Source of the DNA: a virus | Lineage: Duplodnaviria; Heunggongvirae; Uroviricota; Caudoviricetes | Strand: one strand, 5' to 3' | Virus record (IMG/VR): IMGVR_UViG_3300029241_000040 | Length of the DNA stretch: 10,530 nucleotides | Notes under the pieces: model-generated | Told to the model about the DNA's origin: nothing | Seen by the model: the letters and a program-made list of their open reading frames with translations, nothing else | Databases searched by the model: none | Program-made: the position numbers and the translations under genes | Shown here: positions 1 through 10,530 of the stretch, one piece after another | Position numbering within the stretch: position 1 is the stretch's first letter | Layout: each line of letters opens with the position of its first letter

Positions 1-83
1 ATCGGTGGAGCTGCATGACAAAGTCATCGGGCATTATCTGAACATAAAACACTATCAATAAGTTGGAGTCATTACCGCAATGA

Positions 84-902
<819 letters not shown>

Positions 903-962: not shown

Positions 963-1517
963 TCATTTATCTCCGACCGGAAACTTCTTATACAGTGTCG
1001 ATATACCAACATCATAGATGATCGCCACCTTCTGGCGAGGAACGCCTGATGCAATTAATCGCCCGGCCTGCGCCCATTGTTCTGGTGTAAGTTTGGGACG
1101 ACGTCCCCCAATTCGTCCCTGTGCGCGAGCAGCTTCCAGTCCAGCTTTTGTTCGTTCAACAATCAGTTCTCGTTCCATTTCAGCCAGGGCACCCATCACA
1201 TGAAAGAAAAAACGCCCCATCGGTGTGCTGGTATCAATAGCATCCGTCAGGCTGCGAAAATTAACGCCACGTTCGCGCAACTCCTCAACCAGAATGACCA
1301 GATGCCGCATACTACGCCCCAGCCGATCCAGCTTCCAGACAACCAGAGTGTCACCTGCCGATAATGTCCTGAGCAGCTTTTTCAGTCCTGGTCTGTAGGA
1401 CTTTGTACCGCTTATCTTGTCTTCAAAAATCAGCTCACATCCTGCACAGTTCAGCGCATTACGTTGTAGATCGGTATTCTGGTCATTTGTTGATACACGT
1501 ACATAGCCAATAAGCAT
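963..1517 (-). CDS. pin: Serine-recombinase DNA invertase of the Pin/Gin/Hin/Cin family (184 aa)
   Basis: Translation from the internal Met reads MLIGYVRVSTNDQ...LVVWKLDRLGRS...GRIGGRRPKL...STLYKK, the hallmark resolvase/invertase catalytic domain with a C-terminal helix-turn-helix. The length matches Pin (184 aa). A GGGGGA Shine-Dalgarno-like sequence lies about 7 nt upstream of the ATG at 1517. The ORF-track start at 1553 would add 12 residues with no homology. Confidence 0.9.
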   Translation of the reverse strand: MLIGYVRVSTNDQNTDLQRNALNCAGCELIFEDKISGTKSYRPGLKKLLRTLSAGDTLVVWKLDRLGRSMRHLVILVEELRERGVNFRSLTDAIDTSTPMGRFFFHVMGALAEMERELIVERTKAGLEAARAQGRIGGRRPKLTPEQWAQAGRLIASGVPRQKVAIIYDVGISTLYKKFPVGDK

Positions 1518-1571
1518 GTTAAATCCCCCTGGTAAAAGCAGGAATGATGCCATTTGCTTGTTATTTCTTCA

Positions 1572-1597
1572 TTTTCATAAACGTTGGTTTGGGAGAA
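1572..1597. repeat. Invertase crossover site (hix/gix-like 26-bp site), pin-proximal
   Basis: ttttcataaacgttggtttgggagaa fits the recalled family consensus TTnTCnnAAACCnnGGTTTnnGAnAA. It matches the reverse complement of 3429-3454 at 20 of 26 positions, including 14 of 14 in the inner half. Confidence 0.8.
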
Positions 1598-2059
1598 GGT
1601 GCTCCAGCTATTGGCGTTCCGTTCTTCTGGCCGTCCGCTGCAATGCCAAATACTGTAATCGACAGCTGGTCCGGTATGGTGTTTTTGAAGTTCAACGGCG
1701 CGAAATTCTCTGCCACTGATTACCCTGTGCTGGCGAAAGTGTTTCCTTCGCTGGTATTACCTGAAGCCCGCGGTGATTTCATTCGTATCTGGGATGATGG
1801 TCGTGGTGTAGATAGTGGACGTGGATTACTTAGTACGCAGTCTGACCTGATGAAACAATTTACTTTGCAATACTACGGTCCTTCTGCTGGTACTGGAACA
1901 AGAACGGTTTTCGCCCTCCAGAGTAATGCGAACGGCATATATACGAGTGGTATTAGTCAGAATGATGGTAGTGGCACCGCTGCGGCTTTTAATGTACCAG
2001 GCGGCACCGAAACACGCCCACGTAACATTGCATTCAACTTTTTAGTAAGGGCTAAATAA
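1586..2059 (+). CDS. Silent alternative tail-fibre C-terminal segment (Sv'-like); promoterless until inversion
   Basis: Reading frame is open from the crossover site. The GLGE codons (ggt ttg gga gaa, 1586-1597) are identical to those at 3429-3440 on the minus strand, so inversion would fuse this segment in frame to the constant N-terminus. The first 14 residues of track ORF 1544-2059 lie before or across the site and are not expected to be translated. Confidence 0.7.
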   Translation, partial: GLGEGAPAIGVPFFWPSAAMPNTVIDSWSGMVFLKFNGAKFSATDYPVLAKVFPSLVLPEARGDFIRIWDDGRGVDSGRGLLSTQSDLMKQFTLQYYGPSAGTGTRTVFALQSNANGIYTSGISQNDGSGTAAAFNVPGGTETRPRNIAFNFLVRAK

Positions 2060-2652
2060 TGAAACCTGTTTTTGATAAAAATGGGCTGGCTACAGTACCG
2101 GGTGATATGCGTTGTTTTTATTATGATGCAGTAACGTCTGAATATACTGGCTGGTCTGATGAATATATTAATACTGGTGTAAGTATGCCCGCCTGTTCCA
2201 CTGGTATTGACCCGGGCGAATACATTCCGGGGAAAGTGGCAGTATTTACGGGTAAGGGATGGAGCCATGAAGAAGACCACCGCAATGAGACTGCTTACTC
2301 AATCGAAAATGGCGCAGCTGTTACAGTGGATTATATCGGTGCCATCAAAGACGGTTATGTCACGCTTTCACCGTTAACGCCATACGATAAATGGGATGGT
2401 GAGAAATGGGTGACAGATACTGAGGCACAGCATAGTGCCTCAGTAGACGCGGCAGAAGCACAGCGCCAGTCGCTGATTGATGCTGCAATGGCTTCCATCA
2501 GTCTGATTCAACTGAAATTGCAGGCCGGGCGGAAGCTGACGCAGGCAGAAACAACCCGACTTAACGCCGTGCTGGATTACATTGACGCGGTGACGGCAAC
2601 AGATACCAGCACCGCGCCGGATATCATCTGGCCTGAACAGCCGGAGGCGTAG
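2059..2652 (+). CDS. tfa: Tail fibre assembly chaperone, alternative cassette (Tfa/U'-like, 197 aa)
   Basis: ATG overlaps the stop of the preceding fibre segment (TAATG). The C-terminal motif DTSTAPDIIWPEQPE is characteristic of Mu U / Tfa chaperones. Confidence 0.8.
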   Translation: MKPVFDKNGLATVPGDMRCFYYDAVTSEYTGWSDEYINTGVSMPACSTGIDPGEYIPGKVAVFTGKGWSHEEDHRNETAYSIENGAAVTVDYIGAIKDGYVTLSPLTPYDKWDGEKWVTDTEAQHSASVDAAEAQRQSLIDAAMASISLIQLKLQAGRKLTQAETTRLNAVLDYIDAVTATDTSTAPDIIWPEQPEA

Positions 2653-3064
2653 GCCATTCAATATCTGGAGCACTGGAAGTATCGACCAGTTCCAGTGCGT
2701 CAAGATAATCCAGCCATAAATTATATTGCGCCAGTTCCTCACCTTTCAGACGACCAATAGCAGCCTTTCCTGGCCACTGCTTACTGTTAATATATTCATT
2801 AACTCGATTTATGAGTGCCTGTTTTTTTCGTTCCGCTTCTGACAGTTGTTCTTCATGAGTTAGCGGCGGTACGTCATCCCATGCAGGATAGCCATCATCA
2901 CCCGCAACTCTCACTTTCCCTGGAGGTGGGGACAGGTACTTAATAAATATATCCTCATCAACTTCAACTCCATTATGAGGCCATAACCCAGACTTCTTAT
3001 ACTGACTTTCCAGAGTAAATGGGTAAAACATATTAGTTTTAGCATCGTAAAGATATTTACTCAT
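2624..3064 (-). CDS. tfa: Tail fibre assembly chaperone, currently expressed cassette (Tfa/U-like, 146 aa)
   Basis: Start chosen at the internal Met (MSKYLYDAKTNMFYPF...), 1 nt downstream of the fibre stop codon. The C-terminal motif DTSSAPDIEWP matches the Tfa family. The ORF-track start at 3163 would overlap the fibre gene. Confidence 0.8.
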   Translation of the reverse strand: MSKYLYDAKTNMFYPFTLESQYKKSGLWPHNGVEVDEDIFIKYLSPPPGKVRVAGDDGYPAWDDVPPLTHEEQLSEAERKKQALINRVNEYINSKQWPGKAAIGRLKGEELAQYNLWLDYLDALELVDTSSAPDIEWPTPPAVQAR

Positions 3065-3065
3065 T

Positions 3066-3731
3066 TTATCTTCCTGTGGCAAACCAGCGGCAACCAGCGA
3101 CAGTTGGAACATTGAAGGATGGATTTCCTTTATCAAGAGATCCCAGGTTATCTGCCATGACACTTGAGTTAGTCAATTGATAGAATTGCCATACTGACAT
3201 TTTCCCTGGCACAGGAGCATGGTCATGTTCATTAATAGAAATGACGCCTGTCGGAAATGGGATAGGAAAATTAATCAAAACTTCATTTATTGTGGCCCCA
3301 GTTAGCCCCCATTGTTCAATATAACCATCCGGGCTTCGCCTCCATCCCGTCGTTGTATCTCCCCCACACTCCCACGCTGACATATCAGGAATTTGGTTTT
3401 GCCCGTTACCCACATCCCGTTTTGCCGCTTCTCCCAAACCAAGGTTTTCGAGAGCCGTTTTCACGGTGCCATCCGATTTGATATCGCCAAACGGATTCTT
3501 GCGGCTTAACAGCAGCGCACGAAGCGCGGTAAGCAGCTGGTCATGCCGCCCCTTCTCCAGGCTGGCACCGGATGCCTCCACCACGCCACAAAGCTCTTCC
3601 TGCAACATGTCAAAGTAGTCATCATCCAGATCGGTGGCAGGCGTGCCGGTCTGGGGGTTACCACGGGTAAAACCGTTCTTACCCGCGCCGAACTTATCCT
3701 TCTGCGCGGTTTTCGTGTCTATACGATGCAT
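3066..3731 (-). CDS. stf: Short tail fibre protein (221 aa; constant N-terminus of about 96 aa plus variable C-terminus in the current orientation)
   Basis: Position between the gp48-like gene and tfa. A crossover site lies inside the gene at the codons for ENLGLGE. The variable part sits inside the invertible segment. Length resembles the short fibres of e14-like elements. Confidence 0.8.
3429..3454. repeat. Invertase crossover site (hix/gix-like 26-bp site) inside the tail fibre gene
   Basis: ttctcccaaaccaaggttttcgagag closely resembles the recalled hixL sequence and the family consensus. It is in inverted orientation relative to 1572-1597. Confidence 0.8.
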
Positions 3732-3734
3732 GGA

Positions 3735-4319
3735 TTACTCCGGATATTTAAAAATTACGTAGGTATGCGACGGGCAGAGTTTGTTAAGCACACACTCGAC
3801 AACGGTGTCACCCCAGATACGCAGTGCGGAATCACAGGGATCGCCACATGTCATCCAGGTGGTGTTGGTGGCGGCTGGCATGTTGACCTGCCAGTAATAC
3901 CGCCATTCCGGCGCATTCACCGCGTCAGTACAGGCCGATGAGCAGGTGAACGTGCTTTTGTCGTATCGCGTGATGGTGGCATCTGGTCTGCCCAGGGCAG
4001 CAAGCTGTGCAAGATAAAAATCCTCGTTGATGCCGCCCGCCAGGTTAACCTTCGCATCCAGCCGTTGCTGACGCTGGCGAAGGGTCTGCGTTCCCGCCGG
4101 AATACATTCATCCGGCAGACCGCACAGACGCTCCCAGCGGTTTATCAGTTCAGTGGTGGTGCGCGGATCCAGCTCCCGCATCAGGGCATCCGCACGCTGA
4201 TGAACACGGGTTAATGACGGTGCCGCACCGGCAATCGCCGGATCGCTGGCTGACCACGCCGGACCGGGCGGCAACAGTGCCGATAACAGGCGGATGTAAT
4301 CATCGTTTGTCACGTCCAT
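3735..4319 (-). CDS. Mu gp48-like / YmfQ-like baseplate protein (DUF2313, 194 aa)
   Basis: N-terminus [22 protein letters not shown] is the typical start of this family. It lies directly upstream of the tail fibre gene. Confidence 0.75.
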
Positions 4320-5368
4320 GAAATCGTCCCCAGTACCGCCAGTTCGTTTTTCGCAATGGAGATATTGTCCACCGGTGCAAGCAACTGATGGCTGTATTCC
4401 CCGTTCGCACCGGAAATCGCCTCACTGATACGCGATACCTTCAGTTCTCCCTGCGGATAACCATCACGCAGCAGGAACGAACGCAACTCCGCGGTAATGG
4501 CAGCCCGTATTTCCGGTGTGTCCGGCGTCACGCGGATATGAAAATCCACCGTATGTGCCACCGGCCTGAATACATACAAATCAGAGCCTGCCACCGGGGC
4601 CAGTGGCCCGATATGTTGTCTTGCTGCCGTTTCCGTTGATTCTTCCGGAATGGGATTAATCAGGTCACTGCTGGCAATCATCACACCGACAGTTCCCGTT
4701 CCCATCCAGTGACGGTATGTCCATGCGCGGGTAATGCCGGGCACTTCTTTAGCCCAGACGACATAGTCCCCGTCAGCCCCGCCCTGAGGCGTCCAGTAAT
4801 ACCGCTCAATGACGCGGGCGCGCCACGTTTCCAGCTCTTCAGTATCAAATCCGCCTGTAAGGGTATCTGCCACGCCGGAAGACGGCAGACCATTAACCGG
4901 CGTGACCAGGATTAATGACGTACCGTCGTCAGCGTTACCGACCGCGCCTGCACTTGAGCAGGCGATCGGCACGCGCAGGACACCACCGGAGCTGGTTGCA
5001 TCGGCAGTTGCCGTGTACTGAACCAGGTCATCGCGCTGAATAACACTCCCGGCGGTCACCTTCAGGCCATCGCTGACACCTTCCCAACGCATATACCCGC
5101 TGGCAGCCGTGGCCCCCTTGCGCGGACACCGTTTCATCGCAGCATGTCGCGCCAGCCAGGACTCATCGCACAGGTCAGGCAGCATGTTCATTGCCAGATA
5201 ATCGATGTACCCGTAAACCGTATGCAGCGCCGCCGCATACACCTTTGCCCGCACGTCTTCATCCATGCGCCGGAGCGTGTCGCTGACGTCCAGCCTGGCG
5301 AATAAATCGTTACGGAGCATACTGATATTTTCTGCCAGCGTCGGGCGCTGAAATTCACTGTCCGCCAT
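4310..5368 (-). CDS. Baseplate J-like protein (Mu gp47-like, 352 aa)
   Basis: Size and position within the Mu-order baseplate block. Its stop region overlaps the downstream gene start by 10 nt. Confidence 0.75.
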
Positions 5369-5783
5369 GCGTTATCGCACTCCACAGATCATCAAAAGAA
5401 ATCATTACCGGTCCGTCACGACGCCAGAGGGTGATACTGTTACCCAGCTCATTAATCCCGGTGCGGCGGATATCCAGATCAATACGGGACACCACGCCGT
5501 CATCAATCATCCATTGCAGGCATTCGCGGATATACCCCCTTACTGTCTGCACCAGCTGATTGGTCAGTTTGCTGCGCTGAAGCAGCCACAGTCGGGAGCC
5601 GTAACGGTCATTCTGTACCGCAGGCCAGGTATCCCCCCACCATCCCATCGGGACGTCGGCGTTGTCATCAGGCTCCGCCCGCCGCCAGGTAAACAGGGAA
5701 ATCACCACGGCGCGGGTCAGCGGATCCAGCGGTGCGCTGGCGCAGGTGCGTTTACCGTTCACCGTCAGCCACAGTTCCATCAT
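5355..5783 (-). CDS. Mu gp46-like baseplate protein (gp25/W-like, 142 aa)
   Basis: Size and order match Mu gp46. It overlaps its neighbours, suggesting translational coupling. Confidence 0.7.
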   Translation of the reverse strand: MMELWLTVNGKRTCASAPLDPLTRAVVISLFTWRRAEPDDNADVPMGWWGDTWPAVQNDRYGSRLWLLQRSKLTNQLVQTVRGYIRECLQWMIDDGVVSRIDLDIRRTGINELGNSITLWRRDGPVMISFDDLWSAITHGGQ

Positions 5784-6328
5784 GCCTCCATCGCTTTATC
5801 CGGTTTGTCGGTGTTACTGCCCTGACCGTTCTCTCTGTGACGATGCCCGTTATAGGCAAGCCGCATCGCTGACATGGTAGTGCCGCTGGAGTCGCACAGG
5901 TCTTTCACCTGTCCTGTCACTTCCAGGTCCATTTCAAAACGTGCTTTAGGTGAATTGCGAAACGTGATCGTTTTACCTGCACCGTCCACCACGATCCCCT
6001 CCCGGGTCAGCGTCACAGACTGCCCCTGATCGTCATAGACAGCCACCTCACCCGTCTGCAACCCTTTCAGGCGGTAGCGCCGGTCCGACACCGTAACAAC
6101 CACCGCATGAGAACGGTCGCCATCCGGAAACAACACCACCGCTTCCGCACCGCTGTTTGCCCTTGCGGTAAAACCGTAGGGTTCAAGATGTTCAACCCCG
6201 GCTTTGGGTTCACCGGCAATCAGGGACACATCCACGGTCTGACATTTCGTGGCGGCACTGATGCTTTTCACCACTGCCCGCGCAATCAGGCCGAGAAGTT
6301 GTCGCTGCATGGCTTCAATCGTCCTCAT
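5780..6328 (-). CDS. Baseplate assembly protein V-like / Mu gp45-like spike (182 aa)
   Basis: Size and order match Mu gp45. Its start overlaps the upstream stop in an ATGA arrangement. Confidence 0.7.
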   Translation of the reverse strand: MRTIEAMQRQLLGLIARAVVKSISAATKCQTVDVSLIAGEPKAGVEHLEPYGFTARANSGAEAVVLFPDGDRSHAVVVTVSDRRYRLKGLQTGEVAVYDDQGQSVTLTREGIVVDGAGKTITFRNSPKARFEMDLEVTGQVKDLCDSSGTTMSAMRLAYNGHRHRENGQGSNTDKPDKAMEA

Positions 6329-7407
6329 CAGAACGGGTCCTCCTGTACTCTGGCTTTTTTCTTTTTCCGCGCGCCGGGGGCTTCGGGTTCAGGCAGATAA
6401 GCATCAGGCGGGCCGACACGGATTTCCGTCAGGGTGCCGTTCTGGTCCTGAGTAAACGTGACTTCCGAGACAAGCAGTTCGGTATTGTCGAAACCACAGA
6501 CCGGATCAAAGACAATCACCCGCTGGTTGGGCTGCCACAGCGTACCGTTACCCTGTCGCCAGCCCTGCACCACATAGGTGGTTTCATCCGTCCGCGCCGC
6601 CCGTTGTCGGGCTTCAAAGTCAGCACGCGCAATACAGCCTGCCCCCGTGGCCTGCCCTGTCTGCCTGATATACATCGGACGGTAACGGGCAATAAATGCG
6701 TCCTCTGTGCGGGCCCGCAGCGCGGTGGTGGTGACCTCACCGAAATCATCGTCGTTTCCGGCACGCTGCCCCGCCACCTGGTAAACAGAAAACCGCTCCC
6801 GGATACTCTTCTCCGTATCGCAGGAAAGGATGTTTTCCCCAAGTACCAGCGCGGTATGTGCCCGCGTTGAGCCAATACCGCCAATCACCAGCCTGCCGTG
6901 CGGGTCGTCGTAAGCCAGCGCCTGCTGCTGACCGAGTATTTTGTTTATTACCTCAATCACCGTTTCACCGTGATCAGGCTGAACATCAGGAATAACACCC
7001 GACGGCGCACCGCTGTTCACCACCTCAATGCCGAAAGGCGCAGCAAGCGCCTGCGCAATCTGCACCAGCGAGCGTCCGTTAAACTGTGTCGGTTCGGCTG
7101 CACAGTCAATCAGGTCAGCCGTCAGACTACGTCCGGCAATACCGGTGCTGACCGAACGGGCATCGTAACGAACGGGCGTCGCCTCCACCCAGCCGGTGAT
7201 CACCAGCTCATCACCAATCAGCACTTCCACTTTTGAACCGTTTTTAATGCGCGGCTGAAGCGTGGTGATACCCTCATCTCCCGGCCACTGGCGGGTGATC
7301 TCCACACTGAAATCCCGCGCCAGCCGTTCAATACCGGCACCGATGCGCACCGATGTCCAGCCATTCCACTCCCGGCCATTTACCCGTAGCGTGACATTGT
7401 CGTTCAT
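6328..7407 (-). CDS. Mu gp44-like baseplate hub protein (Phage_GPD-like, 359 aa)
   Basis: Size and order match Mu gp44 (P). The start overlaps the upstream gene by 4 nt. Confidence 0.7.
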   Translation of the reverse strand: MNDNVTLRVNGREWNGWTSVRIGAGIERLARDFSVEITRQWPGDEGITTLQPRIKNGSKVEVLIGDELVITGWVEATPVRYDARSVSTGIAGRSLTADLIDCAAEPTQFNGRSLVQIAQALAAPFGIEVVNSGAPSGVIPDVQPDHGETVIEVINKILGQQQALAYDDPHGRLVIGGIGSTRAHTALVLGENILSCDTEKSIRERFSVYQVAGQRAGNDDDFGEVTTTALRARTEDAFIARYRPMYIRQTGQATGAGCIARADFEARQRAARTDETTYVVQGWRQGNGTLWQPNQRVIVFDPVCGFDNTELLVSEVTFTQDQNGTLTEIRVGPPDAYLPEPEAPGARKKKKARVQEDPF

Positions 7408-8558
7408 TGCACTGGCACCTTCAGAGGGATCACCGGCACAAAGCCGGGATGCGTAATGGCATTACGCCGGATAATGTCCGCGTCACGCGCCGCGTTATCA
7501 AACCAGGTCGCCGCCAGCACCAGCGCGGGTAAAACCTCATCCGGCGTGCGCTGAATGATCCGTGCAGACTGTTCAAGGCGCGTGTTGATATCCGCATTCA
7601 GATCTGCTTTCACCCGGCGCAGCACCAGAAACAGCGCATCACTGGTTGTACGGGACAACTCCTTATCAATTGCCGTATTCAGTGTGTCGCGAATGTCGGT
7701 CAGTTCTTCCCACGTTGGCAGGTCAACCGTGTTTTTCACCGCCGGTGCATTGTTCAGTGCCGGATGCGTGACAGAAGGCCAGCCGGTGCTCTGCGCGGGT
7801 GTTGTTGACTGCCCCACTGTGGCATTCTGCATCACCGCGGAAGTTGTGGGCGCAGGCAATCGTGTGACGACATACGCCGCTTCGCTGATTGCGGTCGTAC
7901 GAAGGGTGCTGGCAACCACGTTACGCTGCTGCGTCGCCGTGGCGGTGGTTTTACTGTCCGTTTTCCAGACGCCGCGCGGTTGCAGATCGCTGCCAAGGCT
8001 GACACCGGAAAGCGTTTTGATCATGGTGACCAGGTCGCTGGCGTTACCATAAAGGCGTTTCCCGGTACGCCACATTTTCTGCACCTGCTCAACGAAATTT
8101 TTGCCTGACGATGGCGGCGGAAGAAGTACCGAGATATCCCCCTGCAACAGCCTGGCGGCATCCGATACGGCAGAATCCACCACTTTCATCGCATCAGAAA
8201 CATACCCAAGCATTGTGCCGACATTACCGACGACGTCGTTCTGCACAAAATCTGCCACGCCATCGATACTGAAACCGCTGAAGCTGTCACTGATGCAGTC
8301 ATCCAGTGCAGAACAGGATGACATCAGCGTCTGCGCCGTCGCCACGCCTGATGTGGGGTAAGAGAGATCTCCCGCTTCGACAAACTTCAGGTCAAAGCGG
8401 ACAATACGCCCTTCACTCTTCGATGTGCTGACCCGAACTTCCCCGTCAACACAGACTTTCAACTCACCGTATGTCGGGTGGACAAGCGTGCCGGGACCGG
8501 GTTTATTCAGCGCGTCAATCAGGCGATCGCGCTGGTCAAAGCAGTCATCTCCCACCAC
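7404..8558 (-). CDS. Mu N (gp43)-like DNA circularisation protein, N-terminally truncated remnant (GTG start; homology continues upstream to about 8660 with no start codon)
   Basis: QRDRLIDALNKPGPGTLVHPTYGELKV matches the conserved N-domain motif of the Mu N family. The same frame upstream reads ...AEDLGKVTF... back to a TAG at 8661-8663 without ATG, GTG or TTG. The expected ASFRGVPF / GGRR / HEFP N-terminal motifs are absent. Confidence 0.65.
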   Translation of the reverse strand: MVGDDCFDQRDRLIDALNKPGPGTLVHPTYGELKVCVDGEVRVSTSKSEGRIVRFDLKFVEAGDLSYPTSGVATAQTLMSSCSALDDCISDSFSGFSIDGVADFVQNDVVGNVGTMLGYVSDAMKVVDSAVSDAARLLQGDISVLLPPPSSGKNFVEQVQKMWRTGKRLYGNASDLVTMIKTLSGVSLGSDLQPRGVWKTDSKTTATATQQRNVVASTLRTTAISEAAYVVTRLPAPTTSAVMQNATVGQSTTPAQSTGWPSVTHPALNNAPAVKNTVDLPTWEELTDIRDTLNTAIDKELSRTTSDALFLVLRRVKADLNADINTRLEQSARIIQRTPDEVLPALVLAATWFDNAARDADIIRRNAITHPGFVPVIPLKVPVQ

Positions 8559-9247
8559 ATAAGCCGTGATGGACGGGCGGAAAGTGACTTTTCCCAGATC
8601 TTCGGCAGGTCTGGTACCAGCTTCTGGACATGATTCCGCGCCAGTGTGGTTGGTAAACGGCTAAATCGGTTTCCATTGCAACGCCCACAAATCTTATAAA
8701 CAGGCGTGCCATGAAGCCGGGTCCTTTTTTCATCCAGGACAATACCTTTACCCTTACACCCTCTGCACGCTGTGCTGACTTCTCCCTTACCATGACAATG
8801 CTGACATAGTTCCTTCACCCACTCTTCCTTGATAACAGATTCCCCGCTTCTGGAGTGTTTCACCACCTCGCGCAATACATTATGAAATCCAGTACCAGCA
8901 CAATGCTCACAGCGAGCCTTACTTGCCGCAGACCTGGAATAATCAGCAAAGGCAAAATTCACAAGGTAAGGGATGATCTGTAACCGGATTTCTTCACTCA
9001 ATTTGTTCAATGTCGGGTTATCCAGTGCCATCGCGTAATTGAGCAGACCTTCAATCGCAAACTGAGGATCCTGAACACCAACTTTTGCCAGGAATAAGGC
9101 AAACCCAAGCGGTGCTTTCGACTGCACCATCCCCTGCGCAGCCATCACATCTGTAATTGTTAAACCACCCGAGCCTGTCGCCGGTGCGTCATCACTCAAT
9201 TTTGGAGATTTTGGGGAGTAATATTTTGGTAAAGCTTCAAGGTTCAT
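8519..9247 (-). CDS. Q-like late antiterminator (QuuQ-type, 242 aa) with a cysteine-rich zinc-finger region
   Basis: Four CxxCxGxG-type repeats (CEHCAGTG, CQHCHGKG, CRGCKGKG, CGRCNGNR). Position downstream of DUF968 and KilA-C genes matches the lambdoid nin to Q arrangement. The sequence resembles my recollection of Qin-prophage QuuQ, which is unverified. Confidence 0.6.
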   Translation of the reverse strand: MNLEALPKYYSPKSPKLSDDAPATGSGGLTITDVMAAQGMVQSKAPLGFALFLAKVGVQDPQFAIEGLLNYAMALDNPTLNKLSEEIRLQIIPYLVNFAFADYSRSAASKARCEHCAGTGFHNVLREVVKHSRSGESVIKEEWVKELCQHCHGKGEVSTACRGCKGKGIVLDEKRTRLHGTPVYKICGRCNGNRFSRLPTTLARNHVQKLVPDLPKIWEKSLSARPSRLMWWEMTALTSAIA

Positions 9248-9260
9248 GCTCGTTCTCCAC

Positions 9261-10256
9261 TTACGCCAGTACGCCTATTGCCAGCGCACGATCGATAAAA
9301 CGAAATATCAGCTCCAGCTGGGAGCCATACTTCTCTTCAAATGCCACGGTATCCGCATGCAGCTCGTCGTGATGCTTTCTGCACAAAGGCAACACAAAGA
9401 GGTCATGCGCTTTTGTACCCATCCCACCCTGACCGTGGCCTATCAGGTGGTGGGGATCATCAGCAGGCTTTCCACAACATGCACACGGCTGTGTCTTAAC
9501 CCAGCGCGTGTACTTTTCATTAACCCAGCGGCGACGTTTTGGGCGTAACATAAAAGACTCCGGCGACTCCGGATCCACTTTCAGCGCCAGCACCTTTTTC
9601 GCCTTATCCTGGATGATGCTGGTGGCAGGAACCGAAGGCACAAGGTCACTTTCCCGGGTGACAGACGGCACAACAGGCTTCGGTAATCTCAGTGCCTTAC
9701 GGGCTGCACTTTCCGGTAAGGCATCCGCCAGGTCATTACGAATCAGCCACCAGCACAGTTCCGGCATTGTCACAACGTGACTGTCATCAAAACCGAGATC
9801 CCGACGCACAACAGACAACACCCAGCGGGCACAGTTATCCGTTGCCATTGATTCCAGCCGTTCCGTGAACTGATCGCGCAGCTGGTTATCGCAGTGCCAG
9901 CACAGACGGATTGCACCCGGAGCGTGTCGCATTGTGGTCATGTTCTCGCTGTGCCAGTCGGAATGAGGCCACTGGCAGCCTTTTTCACGAAGTAACCAGC
10001 TTTCAAGACATTCCACGCCACCAGCACGACGGATCACTGCCTCATTGCGGAACACGGCCAGAACGGCAGGATCATCCGCCAGCGGTTGTGATGCCGCCGG
10101 AACGGCACCACTGGCGAAAGATGAATAACGCTCCGGCTCAGGCTCCAGCAGGACACGCCCCTGCATAAACAGGGGCATCAGCTCTGAACCTGGTCTGAAC
10201 AATACGATCCCCATACGCGGGGCAATTTCAGGGGTCAGTAGTGCTCTCACGGTCAC
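9261..10256 (-). CDS. DUF968-family lambdoid prophage protein with a C-terminal HNH-like motif (YdfU-like, 331 aa)
   Basis: C-terminal CACCGKPADDPHHLIGHGQGG...LCRKHHDELH has the Cys and His spacing of an HNH / zinc-binding motif. It lies immediately upstream of the Q-like gene. Confidence 0.6.
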   Translation of the reverse strand: MTVRALLTPEIAPRMGIVLFRPGSELMPLFMQGRVLLEPEPERYSSFASGAVPAASQPLADDPAVLAVFRNEAVIRRAGGVECLESWLLREKGCQWPHSDWHSENMTTMRHAPGAIRLCWHCDNQLRDQFTERLESMATDNCARWVLSVVRRDLGFDDSHVVTMPELCWWLIRNDLADALPESAARKALRLPKPVVPSVTRESDLVPSVPATSIIQDKAKKVLALKVDPESPESFMLRPKRRRWVNEKYTRWVKTQPCACCGKPADDPHHLIGHGQGGMGTKAHDLFVLPLCRKHHDELHADTVAFEEKYGSQLELIFRFIDRALAIGVLA

Positions 10257-10257
10257 C

Positions 10258-10530
10258 TCAATGAACGGTATCGAGCAGCTTTAACAGCTCAGGGAATCGG
10301 GATTCGAAGAAATGCGGCTGCGTCTCGCGCGGATTTGCGGGACTGGTGATGTTCTTGCCGAACATGCAACCTTTCGCTGTCAGCGACCAGAATTTTTTGA
10401 TGTTGTTAATCGTGGTACGGCTGTATCGTTCGCGCTGCTCGACGATCCCCAGCTTCACCATCTGGTGATATGCCTGATTAGCTGTCAGGCGGATACCATA
10501 CTGCTTCAGCAGTGCACTCAGTGACAGCGT
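10258..10530 (-). CDS. KilA-C / antirepressor-like protein (Roi-like), C-terminal fragment; the gene continues past the right edge of the window
   Basis: The reading frame is open from the window edge: TLSLSALLKQYGIRLTANQAYHQMVKLGIVEQRERYSRTTINNIKKFWSLTAKG... It resembles the KilA-C domain in lambdoid nin regions. The ORF-track Met at 10461 is internal. Confidence 0.5.
   Translation of the reverse strand, partial: TLSLSALLKQYGIRLTANQAYHQMVKLGIVEQRERYSRTTINNIKKFWSLTAKGCMFGKNITSPANPRETQPHFFESRFPELLKLLDTVH

What the first reader, a model, noticed from the sequence alone, without database searches (positions are those of the whole stretch)
3735..8660. Baseplate-only Mu-like module retained without sheath, tube, tape-measure or head genes
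Genes equivalent to Mu gp44-gp48 plus fibre and chaperone are intact and tightly coupled (start/stop overlaps at 4310-4319, 5355-5368, 5780-5783, 6328 and 7404-7407). Everything normally upstream of N/gp43 has been replaced by lambdoid regulatory genes. The same partial module is kept in e14-like elements, which raises the question of whether it is expressed or has a function beyond a phage remnant.
Basis: partly seen in the sequence, partly recalled or inferred. Interest (0 to 1): 0.35.

Follow-up and report, generated by a model that had tools for sequence, protein, structure and literature searches.

The report
Recently deleted SfV-like prophage remnant
This is a defective copy of a well-known E. 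coli/Shigella phage (SfV/e14 family) that recently lost about 17 kb of lysis, head, sheath, tube and tape-measure genes, and its baseplate genes look intact only because they have had no time to decay, so it is ordinary.

Summary
The ORFs, Pfam identities and start/stop overlaps are real: gp44, gp45, gp46, gp47 and gp48 homologues plus fibre and chaperone are intact on the minus strand. The interpretation needs correcting. The module is 97.7% identical to phage SfV orf15-21. Nothing was "replaced": one 16.9-kb deletion (junction at window 8605/8606) fused the phage's own Q gene, now lacking its C-terminus, to N/gp43, now lacking 42 codons of its tube-like domain and its start codon. The late promoter region downstream of Q went with it.

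The junction occurs in 2 of 5,426 complete E. coli genomes and on about 90 contigs elsewhere. Ten carriers differ at only 3 sites in 5.5 kb. Every retained protein has an exact amino-acid match in a full-length prophage. Intactness therefore reflects recency, not selection.

About 1,080 genomes carry the module, and roughly 92% of sampled hits link it to tape measure, tube and sheath. Other remnants have different endpoints: K-12 e14 keeps only part of J plus ymfQ, strain 41 truncates gp44 and ymfQ, and three others break in N or the tape-measure gene. This is a ragged deletion series, not a conserved baseplate-only unit.

Low interest; a known kind of element.

The parts
3735..4319 (-). gp48/YmfQ homologue (baseplate wedge 3), intact, 194 aa
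   Evidence: Pfam Phage_Mu_Gp48, 9e-27. The protein is identical (WP_000383548.1) to the one in full-length prophages L002, L013 and L016.
4310..5368 (-). gp47/J homologue (baseplate wedge 2), intact, 352 aa
   Evidence: Pfam Baseplate_J, 1e-52. The protein is identical (WP_000785308.1) to the one in full-length prophages of ETEC H10407 and F1005.
5355..5783 (-). gp46 homologue (baseplate wedge 1), intact, 141-142 aa
   Evidence: Pfam GP46, 6e-33. WP_000424732.1 is shared with many full-length prophages.
5780..6328 (-). gp45/V homologue (central spike), intact, 182 aa
   Evidence: Pfam Phage_Mu_Gp45, 1.5e-24. WP_001259066.1 is shared with L002 and L007. The window's one private change in the stretch 3735-9247, at 6149, is synonymous.
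6328..7407 (-). gp44/P homologue (baseplate hub), intact, 359 aa
   Evidence: Pfam GpP-like_1st, Gp44-like_2nd and GpP_4th. WP_000999513.1 is shared with L002 and L007.
7404..8605 (-). 5'-truncated N/gp43 (tube initiator, 'DNA circularization protein'). It lacks 42 codons plus 1 nt and the start codon. The first possible start is GTG at 8558, with no Shine-Dalgarno sequence.
   Evidence: PGAP annotates it as a pseudogene missing the N-terminus. DNA_circ_N matches profile positions 55-88 only, against 2-88 in the full-length protein. The retained 400 codons have 0 amino-acid differences from the intact N of strain F1005.
8603..8606 (.). Deletion junction (Q-derived ...CCTG | CCGAAG... N-derived) with no meaningful microhomology. 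The deletion equals L002:28502-45432, 16,931 bp.
   Evidence: BLAST matches of the two halves meet at window 8603-8605. Alignment to the full-length relative is and the sequence.
8519..9247 (-). Truncated antiterminator Q' (214 of 250 native codons) reading out of frame into N for 28 codons
   Evidence: Pfam Antiterm. PGAP annotates it as a pseudogene missing the C-terminus. Full-length Q is 250 aa, with its second Antiterm stretch at residues 155-242. This exact hybrid protein is on 87 contigs.
9261..10256 (-). DUF968/HNH gene (the SfV orf45 equivalent), a native nin-region gene of the same phage
   Evidence: Pfam DUF968, 3.5e-81. SfV has the order orf44 (KilA-N), orf45, Q.
10258..10530 (-). 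3' part of the KilA-N gene (the SfV orf44 equivalent), running off the window
   Evidence: PGAP annotation in L001. The window continues like full-length L002 up to 10530, whereas other carriers break at 10497.
3066..3731 (-). Tail fibre (221 aa). The N-terminal constant part lies outside the Pin-invertible segment and the C-terminal part inside it.
   Evidence: Pfam Gp53-like_C. SfV orf21 is of similar size. The crossover repeat lies at 3428-3447.
2624..3163 (-). Tail-fibre assembly chaperone for the fibre in the current orientation (PGAP start at 3064)
   Evidence: Pfam Caudo_TAP, 1.6e-34.
1544..2652 (+). Alternative fibre C-terminal segment (1544-2059) and its chaperone (2059-2652), silent in this orientation
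   Evidence: ORFs and Caudo_TAP. The inverted orientation is expressed as a 254-aa fibre in carriers L018, L020, L022 and L023.
1579..3447 (.). Pin-invertible segment bounded by 20-nt inverted repeats (1579-1598 and 3428-3447)
   Evidence: the repeat finder. Both orientations are seen among near-identical carriers.
963..1553 (-). pin serine invertase (PGAP 963-1517)
   Evidence: Pfam Resolvase plus HTH_7. Annotated pinE.
129..902 (+). LEM-3-like GIY-YIG cargo gene at the prophage end, in the position where K-12 e14 carries mcrA
   Evidence: Pfam LEM-3_GIY-YIG.

Best explanation
The window is the late end of a defective prophage of the SfV/SfI/'e14-like' family. These phages have lambdoid regulation, an HK97-type head and a Mu-type contractile tail, and they integrate at thrW.

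One illegitimate-recombination deletion of about 16.9 kb removed the following:
- the last 36 codons of Q;
- the region downstream of Q that in SfV holds the annotated terminator, and that in lambdoid phages holds the Q-dependent late promoter;
- the lysis genes, terminase, portal, protease and capsid;
- the head-tail connectors, sheath, tube and tail-assembly chaperone;
- the tape-measure gene and the first 42 codons of N/gp43.

What remains is a passive remnant: gp44-gp48, the fibre and chaperone, the Pin inversion switch and the cargo gene. The baseplate genes are intact and overlapping because they were copied unchanged from a working phage very recently, not because the host keeps them.

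The remnant cannot build a tail, since it lacks sheath, tube, tape measure and a complete tube initiator. It also has no late promoter of its own. Any transcription would be read-through from upstream early genes.

Shown: the deletion, its boundaries, its rarity, the clonality of carriers, the identity of the proteins to those of intact prophages, and the ragged endpoints in other remnants. Inferred: that the baseplate proteins have no function in the host, and that the late promoter has been lost.
For: - Family. The module is 97.7% identical over 5.2 kb to phage SfV orf15-21, and similarly to SfI, SfII and SfIV. SfV has the gene order KilA-N, DUF968, Q, lysis, terminase, head, sheath, tube, tape measure, N, then orf16-22. 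SfI is a working contractile-tailed phage that integrates at thrW (PMC3636060).
- Deletion. The full-length relative L002 has 16,931 bp between the two points that are fused in the window. PGAP calls both flanking genes pseudogenes.
- Rarity and recency. The junction is in 2 of 5,426 complete genomes. The hybrid Q' protein is on 87 contigs and the N' ORF on 94, against at least 1,000 for the exact gp44 and J alleles. Ten carriers show 3 variable sites in 5,513 bp: 2 synonymous, and 1 nonsynonymous in N'.
- No remnant-specific protein change. Every retained protein has an exact amino-acid match in a full-length prophage.
- Normal linkage. The module is in 1,080 genomes, and 55 of 60 evenly spaced hits to an N-to-sheath probe span both ends.
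- Ragged endpoints in other remnants: K-12 e14 has portal'|'J; strain 41 has 'gp44 and 'ymfQ; AF56 has emrY|'N; USMARC-49610 has Q'|'TMP; CT02 has terL'|'N.
- N/gp43 role. Cryo-EM of Mu shows gp43's tube-like domains forming the hexameric barrel that starts the tube, and its helix-rich domain tying the wedges to the hub (PMC11915804). The N-terminal DNA_circ_N region, taken here to be that tube-like domain, is the part truncated.
- No sigma-70-like promoter was found on the coding strand between the fibre genes and the early-region junction in carrier L001.
Against: - All five baseplate genes plus fibre and chaperone are intact in every carrier examined. Selection would also produce this, but so would recency.
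- At least four independent deletions (window type, L025, L026, L005) leave gp44-gp48 whole. Ascertainment was anchored on these genes, and the numbers are too small to test.
- In K-12 e14 the remnant tail genes ymfQ, tfaP and pinE are transcribed together with the SOS response (PMC10012262), so remnants of this kind can be expressed.
- The promoter scan is a weak consensus method.
- The window's own upstream region beyond 10530 is unknown, and it differs from other carriers after 10497.
Confidence: 0.9

Rival explanations
1. The host has domesticated the baseplate and fibre genes. They would be expressed and assembled into a tail-less baseplate/fibre complex that benefits the cell, for example by blocking receptors, excluding superinfection, or acting on neighbouring cells.
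For: - The genes are intact with preserved translational coupling in all carriers.
- Several independent deletions leave gp44-gp48 whole.
- Family-wide dN/dS is 0.06-0.14.
- K-12 e14 remnant tail genes are transcribed under SOS.
Against: - The low dN/dS was measured among full-length prophages and reflects phage function.
- Carriers are nearly identical (3 variable sites in 5.5 kb across 10 sequences), so selection after the deletion cannot be seen.
- All the proteins are identical to those of intact prophages.
- The tube initiator N, which in Mu ties the wedges to the hub, is truncated and has no start codon.
- The tape-measure C-terminus, which in Mu seals the hub together with the spike, is absent.
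- The region that should hold the late promoter is deleted.
- The arrangement is rare: 2 of 5,426 genomes.
- Other remnants cut into gp44, J and ymfQ.
Confidence: 0.04
2. The remnant matters mainly as a recombination or complementation reservoir. Superinfecting or co-resident SfV-like phages could pick up its baseplate, fibre or Pin cassettes by homologous recombination, or use its proteins in trans. Either would change host range. This would be a phage-level effect rather than a host function.
For: - The family is highly mosaic. The window's gp44/gp45 alleles match one set of prophages, while its J, ymfQ and N alleles match another.
- The window carries a 16-mismatch patch at 9912-10483 relative to all other carriers of the same junction. 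This indicates exchange with a related prophage after the deletion.
- The Pin segment still flips among carriers.
- About 20% of complete E. coli genomes carry a homologous module as a potential partner.
Against: This follows from any homologous remnant and gives no evidence of selection for keeping the baseplate genes. No recombinant phage derived from this remnant was identified here.
Confidence: 0.25
3. The Q'|'N junction is an assembly or sequencing artefact, and the real locus is a complete prophage.
For: None beyond the general possibility. Prophage repeats can cause misassembly.
Against: The identical junction is in two independently finished genomes from Japan and the USA. It is also on 87-94 contigs from NCBI, ENA, JGI and Logan assemblies with differing flanks.
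Confidence: 0.01

Closest known systems
Shigella/E. coli temperate myophages SfV, SfI, SfII and SfIV (lambdoid regulation, HK97-type head, Mu-type tail, thrW integration)
   Same: - 97.5-97.7% nucleotide identity over N to fibre.
- The same gene order and the same start/stop overlaps in orf15-orf21, and the same KilA-N, DUF968, Q block.
- Carriers sit next to an SfV-type integrase. In one case (L024) this lies beside proA, the thrW side.
   Different: - The window lacks the 16.9 kb between Q and N: lysis, terminase, head, sheath, tube and tape measure.
- Q and N are truncated.
- It carries a Pin inversion switch and a GIY-YIG cargo gene where SfV has gtrABV.
- The other carriers examined that extend that far (for example L001, L004, L017) also lack the stretch from cI/cro and replication genes up to the N-terminus of KilA-N.
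Cryptic prophage e14 of E. coli K-12
   Same: - The same phage family.
- 98% identity over ymfQ, the 3' part of J and the constant part of the fibre.
- The same Pin-invertible fibre/chaperone arrangement and a cargo gene beyond pin.
- Both are deletion remnants that keep the fibre-proximal end.
   Different: - e14's deletion runs from within the portal gene (beeE) into J (jayE). It therefore lacks N, gp44, gp45, gp46 and the first ~90 codons of J.
- e14 sits in icd, keeps its repressor and early operon, and carries mcrA rather than the GIY-YIG gene.
Phage Mu simple baseplate (gp43-gp48, plus gp49/gp50)
   Same: Pfam families and gene order match one for one: tube initiator, hub, spike and three wedge proteins. 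Roles are taken from the Mu cryo-EM structure (PMC11915804).
   Different: - There are only distant protein-family matches, not close homology.
- Regulation is lambdoid Q-type, not Mu C-type.
- The gp43 homologue here is truncated in its N-terminal DNA_circ_N region, taken to be the tube-like domain.
- The fibre is a short gp53-like protein.
R-type tailocins and other domesticated contractile injection systems
   Same: They share the conserved baseplate core (hub, spike, gp25-like, gp6-like and gp7-like wedge proteins).
   Different: Tailocins keep sheath, tube, tape measure, tube initiator, lysis genes and a dedicated regulator. All of these are absent or truncated here.

Membership tests
Mu-type simple baseplate module | Hub (gp44), spike (gp45) and three wedge proteins (gp46, gp47, gp48) present, intact and in that order | tested here: met
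   Pfam E-values from 1e-24 to 1e-53. ORFs are intact in the window and in 12 relatives.
Mu-type simple baseplate module | Complete tube initiator (gp43/N) with its N-terminal tube-like domain | tested here: not met
   42 codons and the start codon are deleted. DNA_circ_N matches profile positions 55-88 only, against 2-88 in the full-length protein.
Functional contractile tail / tailocin | Sheath, tube, tape measure and tail-assembly chaperone encoded with the baseplate | tested here: not met
   None are in the window, nor in 40 kb around the locus in carrier TUM10008. They are present in the full-length relatives L002 and L016 and in SfV.
SfV-like temperate phage (as a complete, inducible prophage) | High nucleotide identity and synteny with SfV late and nin-region genes | tested here: met
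   97.7% over 5.2 kb. Synteny of KilA-N, DUF968, Q and of N to fibre.
SfV-like temperate phage (as a complete, inducible prophage) | Complete late operon: intact Q, late promoter/terminator, lysis, packaging, head and tail genes | tested here: not met
   16,931 bp are deleted relative to L002. Q lacks 36 C-terminal codons.
SfV-like temperate phage (as a complete, inducible prophage) | Immunity and replication region (cI, cro, O/P-like genes) | tested here: inconclusive
   Absent in the carriers examined that extend past KilA-N, for example L001, L004 and L017. The window's own sequence differs from them after 10497 and ends at 10530.
e14 element of K-12 | The same retained gene set and deletion junction as e14 (portal'|'J) | tested here: not met
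   e14 matches only window 3419-5097 at high identity, with weaker matches in the pin/fibre-segment region. The junctions differ.
e14 element of K-12 | Integration in icd | tested here: not met
   Complete-genome carriers lie between the paoABCD/LysR-pseudogene region and an SfV-type integrase next to a tRNA gene. Contig L024 has that integrase next to proA.
e14 element of K-12 | Pin invertase with an invertible fibre/chaperone segment | tested here: met
   Resolvase plus HTH_7. Inverted repeats at 1579-1598 and 3428-3447. Both orientations are seen among carriers.

The most novel reading that the evidence does not exclude
The deletion removes the region that should hold the late promoter and terminator, and it places gp44-gp48, the fibre and the chaperone directly downstream of the nin-region genes. 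In carriers that still have an SOS-cleavable repressor and early promoter, these genes could then be made as early, SOS-induced products. They might assemble into tail-less baseplate/fibre complexes. Such complexes could alter susceptibility to related phages, or be borrowed in trans by superinfecting SfV-like phages (host-range piracy).
Probability: 0.04. Interest if true: 0.4.

Novelty: new member of a known kind. Interest (0 to 1): 0.08.

Why it matters
It matters little. The locus is one more deletion derivative in the well-documented decay series of SfV/e14-like prophages in E. coli.

The useful outcome is a caution. Intact, translationally coupled phage genes in a remnant are not evidence of domestication when the deletion is recent and the alleles are identical to those of working prophages.

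The set of independent deletions found here (window type, L025, L026, L005, L006 and K-12 e14) could serve as a small natural series for studying how this prophage family erodes from its middle while the fibre, Pin and defence-cargo end persists.

Tried and rejected
1. Relaxed selection on truncated N'. Seven of the 9 substitutions private to the carriers, against 10 relatives, fell in N', and 4 of those were nonsynonymous. This was rejected after strain F1005 was found to carry a full-length N, in a complete prophage, with 0 amino-acid and 1 synonymous difference over the same 400 codons. The changes are allele sampling, not changes that arose after the deletion.

2. dN/dS as a test of domestication. 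Family-wide values of 0.06-0.14 come from functional prophages. Within the carrier clade there are only 3 substitutions, which is uninformative. K-12 e14 has 2 private changes, both nonsynonymous, which is too few.

3. Promoter and terminator scan. No coding-strand sigma-70-like site lies upstream of the module in L001, but the total number of hits did not exceed shuffles. Terminator-like hits were more numerous than in shuffles (17 against 7.3 ± 2.8) but lie mostly inside coding sequence on both strands. I drew no conclusion from them.

4. Microhomology at the junction: none convincing.

5. Rfam scan of the window: no hits.

6. Enrichment of deletion endpoints in N (3 of 7). This is not significant (about p = 0.07 under a uniform model, my own calculation) and is biased by how the cases were found.

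7. The Mehta et al. 2004 e14 paper and the Bobay et al. 2014 paper on defective prophages were not available in the library.


Full report
**What is in the window**

The minus strand carries a continuous gene string (Pfam).

| Window coordinates | Gene | Status |
|---|---|---|
| 10258 to beyond 10530 | KilA-N | 3' part only in the window |
| 9261-10256 | DUF968/HNH | intact |
| 8519-9247 | antiterminator Q | truncated |
| 7404-8605 | N/gp43 ('DNA circularization protein') | truncated |
| 6328-7407 | gp44/P hub | intact |
| 5780-6328 | gp45/V spike | intact |
| 5355-5783 | gp46 wedge | intact |
| 4310-5368 | gp47/J wedge | intact |
| 3735-4319 | gp48/YmfQ wedge | intact |
| 3066-3731 | short fibre | intact |
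| 2624-3064 | fibre chaperone (ORF list extends it to 3163) | intact |

- Beyond the chaperone lie a silent alternative fibre C-terminal segment and its chaperone (1544-2652, + strand), the pin invertase (963-1517) and a LEM-3-like GIY-YIG gene (129-902).
- The Pfam matches for the five baseplate genes range from 1e-24 to 1e-53.
- The same overlaps are annotated in phage SfV, so they are inherited phage features.

**What it derives from**

- The N-to-fibre stretch is 97.7% identical to phage SfV orf15-21 and 97.5-97.6% identical to SfI, SfII and SfIV.
- SfV's annotated order is int, xis, yfdT/S/R/Q-like genes, cI, cro, replication genes, RusA, KilA-N (orf44), DUF968/HNH (orf45), Q, terminator, lysis, terminase, portal, protease, capsid, connectors, sheath, tube, tape measure, N (orf15), orf16-20 (noted there as similar to Mu P, gp45, gp46, gp47 and gp48), fibre, chaperone, then cargo.
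- SfI is a working myovirus with a contractile tail. It integrates at thrW and has already been described as related to SfV and to 'e14' (PMC3636060).
- The 'lambdoid regulatory genes' next to N are therefore not a replacement. They are this phage's own nin-region and Q genes.

**The deletion**

- Most E. coli matches to the window stop at 8605.
- A 301-nt probe across that point shows the N-derived half matching up to window 8605 and the Q-derived half from 8603. Only two of 5,426 complete genomes span both halves: TUM10008 (Japan) and E4 (poultry, USA).
- In the full-length relative L002 (strain 2018-05-5CC), the two fused points are 16,931 bp apart (L002:28502-45432).
- That interval holds the Q C-terminus, holins, endolysin, HNH, both terminase subunits, portal, protease, capsid, connectors, sheath, tube, chaperone, tape measure, a small ORF and the first 42 codons of N.
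- The junction reads ...GGTACCAGACCTG|CCGAAGATCTGG... with no useful microhomology.
- PGAP annotates both flanking genes as pseudogenes.
- Q' keeps 214 of 250 codons, then runs out of frame through 28 codons of N sequence to a TGA at 8521-8519.
- N' has no start codon between the in-frame TAG at 8663-8661 and a GTG at 8558, and that GTG has no Shine-Dalgarno sequence.
- This explains the finding's end coordinate of 8660. It is the limit of the open frame, not a gene start.
- The DNA_circ_N domain matches profile positions 2-88 in full-length N (115.7 bits) but only 55-88 here (41.1 bits).
- In Mu, the tube-like domains of gp43 form the hexameric beta-barrel that starts tube assembly, and its helix-rich domain ties the wedges to the hub. 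The tape-measure C-terminus helps the spike and hub seal the tail channel (PMC11915804).
- I take the N-terminal DNA_circ_N region to be that tube-like domain. On that reading, the remnant has lost sheath, tube and tape measure and has a damaged tube initiator.
- The interval downstream of Q, where SfV has an annotated terminator and lambdoid phages place the Q-dependent late promoter (established knowledge), is also gone.

**How common and how old**

- The exact hybrid Q' protein is on 87 contigs and the 384-aa N' ORF on 94 contigs of the large public collection. The window's exact gp44 and J proteins are each on at least 1,000 contigs, which is the counting cap.
- Ten carriers were compared over the 5,513 bp from the Q' start to the ymfQ stop: the window, two complete genomes and seven contigs. 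They differ at three singleton sites:
  - a synonymous change in gp45, private to the window;
  - a synonymous change in J;
  - a Gly-to-Ala change in N'.
- The carriers nevertheless differ in other respects:
  - an IS3 insertion in E4;
  - an IS1 end at window 1-76;
  - Pin-segment orientation;
  - a 16-mismatch patch at 9912-10483 that only the window has.
- The deletion is thus real and inherited, but very young in substitution terms. Neutral decay would not yet have produced any frameshift.

**Are the proteins remnant-specific?**

No. By protein accession and direct comparison:

| Protein | Accession | Full-length prophages with the identical protein |
|---|---|---|
| gp44 | WP_000999513.1 | L002, L007 |
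| gp45 | WP_001259066.1 | L002, L007 |
| gp46 | WP_000424732.1 | L002, L007 |
| YmfQ | WP_000383548.1 | L002, L013 |
| J | WP_000785308.1 | ETEC H10407, F1005 |

- The 400 retained N codons have no amino-acid difference from the intact N of F1005, whose complete prophage sits at the same chromosomal site.
- An early hint of excess nonsynonymous private changes in N' disappeared once F1005 was found.
- Among nine full-length relatives, dN/dS is 0.06-0.14 for each gene. That measures selection on working phages and says nothing about the remnant.

**Is the 'baseplate-only' unit kept elsewhere?**

- The module is present at 80% coverage or more in 1,080 of 5,426 genomes.
- A probe running from N to the sheath gene found both ends in 55 of 60 hits spaced evenly down 1,147 matching records. 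The normal state is a baseplate linked to tape measure, tube and sheath.
- The exceptions are heterogeneous:

| Remnant | Deletion junction or state |
|---|---|
| K-12 e14 | portal fragment fused to J from about codon 90; lacks N, gp44, gp45 and gp46 |
| strain 41 | gp44 and ymfQ truncated |
| AF56 | N truncated at another point, directly beside host emrY |
| USMARC-49610 | Q' fused to a truncated tape-measure gene |
| CT02 | truncated terminase fused to truncated N |
| 2018-05-2CC | only a ymfQ fragment remains |

- Deletions that remove the baseplate but keep tape measure to sheath also exist (H187).
- This is a ragged deletion series, not a conserved module boundary.
- The claim that e14-like elements keep 'the same partial module' fails.

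**Expression**

- A consensus scan found no sigma-70-like promoter on the coding strand between the fibre genes and the early-region junction in carrier L001. The method is weak, and total hits did not exceed shuffles.
- Carriers whose sequence extends past KilA-N (for example L001, L004, L017) also lack the repressor, cro and replication region. The window's own upstream region is unknown.
- In K-12 e14, which keeps its repressor and early operon, ymfQ, tfaP and pinE transcripts rise about 20-fold or more alongside SOS genes (PMC10012262 Table 1).
- I take this as showing that remnant tail genes can be transcribed, most simply by read-through, without that implying function.
- The one activity visible in the remnant is Pin inversion. 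Both orientations of the 1579-3447 segment occur among nearly identical carriers.

**Verdict**

- The finding is a correctly described but ordinary defective SfV/e14-family prophage, made by a single recent 16.9-kb deletion.
- Its intactness is explained by recency and by identity to working alleles.
- Domestication is not excluded in principle but has no positive support (about 4%).
- A role as a recombination reservoir is plausible as a side effect (about 25%).
- Novelty: a previously undescribed deletion derivative of a known kind.
- Interest: low.

Noticed in passing
window 1-76: The first 76 bases are the end of an IS1 copy, 100% identical to an IS1 end in L001. Every other carrier and relative begins to match only at window 77. 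The source genome therefore has an IS1 inserted, or an IS1-bounded rearrangement, just upstream of the GIY-YIG gene.
   Followed up: partly
window 9912-10530: There are sixteen mismatches, clustered in 9912-10483, relative to all ten other carriers of the same Q'|'N junction compared over this region. From 10498 the window continues as KilA-N, like full-length prophages (closest to L002 and SfV). The other carriers break at 10497. This looks like a recombination patch from a related prophage, or a different state of the early-region deletion in the source genome.
   Followed up: partly
window 1579-3447 (inverted repeats 1579-1598 and 3428-3447): The Pin-invertible fibre/chaperone segment is found in both orientations among carriers that are otherwise almost identical. 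L017 has the window's orientation, while L018, L020, L022 and L023 are inverted and give a 254-aa fibre instead of the 221-aa one. The pin invertase of this remnant is therefore still active.
   Followed up: yes
window 129-902; L001:9795-14646; L002:17503-19338: The slot beyond pin is a variable cargo and defence position. The LEM-3-like GIY-YIG gene is conserved there. Next to it, carriers have a type II restriction-modification pair, AbiTii and DUF6650. Strain 2018-05-5CC (L002) has a retron Ec67-type reverse transcriptase, and K-12 e14 has mcrA.
   Followed up: no
window 8519-8606: The truncated Q gene reads out of frame through 28 codons of N sequence, ending PKIWEKSLSARPSRLMWWEMTALTSAIA, before a TGA stop. 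It overlaps the only possible N' start, GTG at 8558. This hybrid protein is a convenient exact-match marker for the deletion and is on 87 contigs.
   Followed up: yes
L025 (NZ_CP104123.1), L026 (NZ_CP081698.1), L005 (NZ_OZ546963.1), L006 (NZ_CP076285.1): These are four further independent deletion derivatives of the same prophage family that lack head, sheath and tube. Three keep all of the baseplate (L025, L026, L005) and one keeps part of it (L006). Their left junctions differ: Q'|'TMP, terL'|'N, host emrY|'N, and yfdR'|'gp44. L025 still has the LexA-like repressor and cro.
   Followed up: partly
L003 (K-12 e14) 12136-13498: Against 13 relatives, K-12's J' and ymfQ remnant has only two private substitutions. 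Both are nonsynonymous: W221L in the jayE pseudogene and A21V in YmfQ. This fits relaxed constraint, but the numbers are far too small to conclude anything.
   Followed up: partly
window 2624-2652: The two oppositely oriented fibre-chaperone genes overlap by 29 nt at their 3' ends inside the invertible segment. The same arrangement occurs in K-12 e14 (tfaP/tfaE).
   Followed up: no
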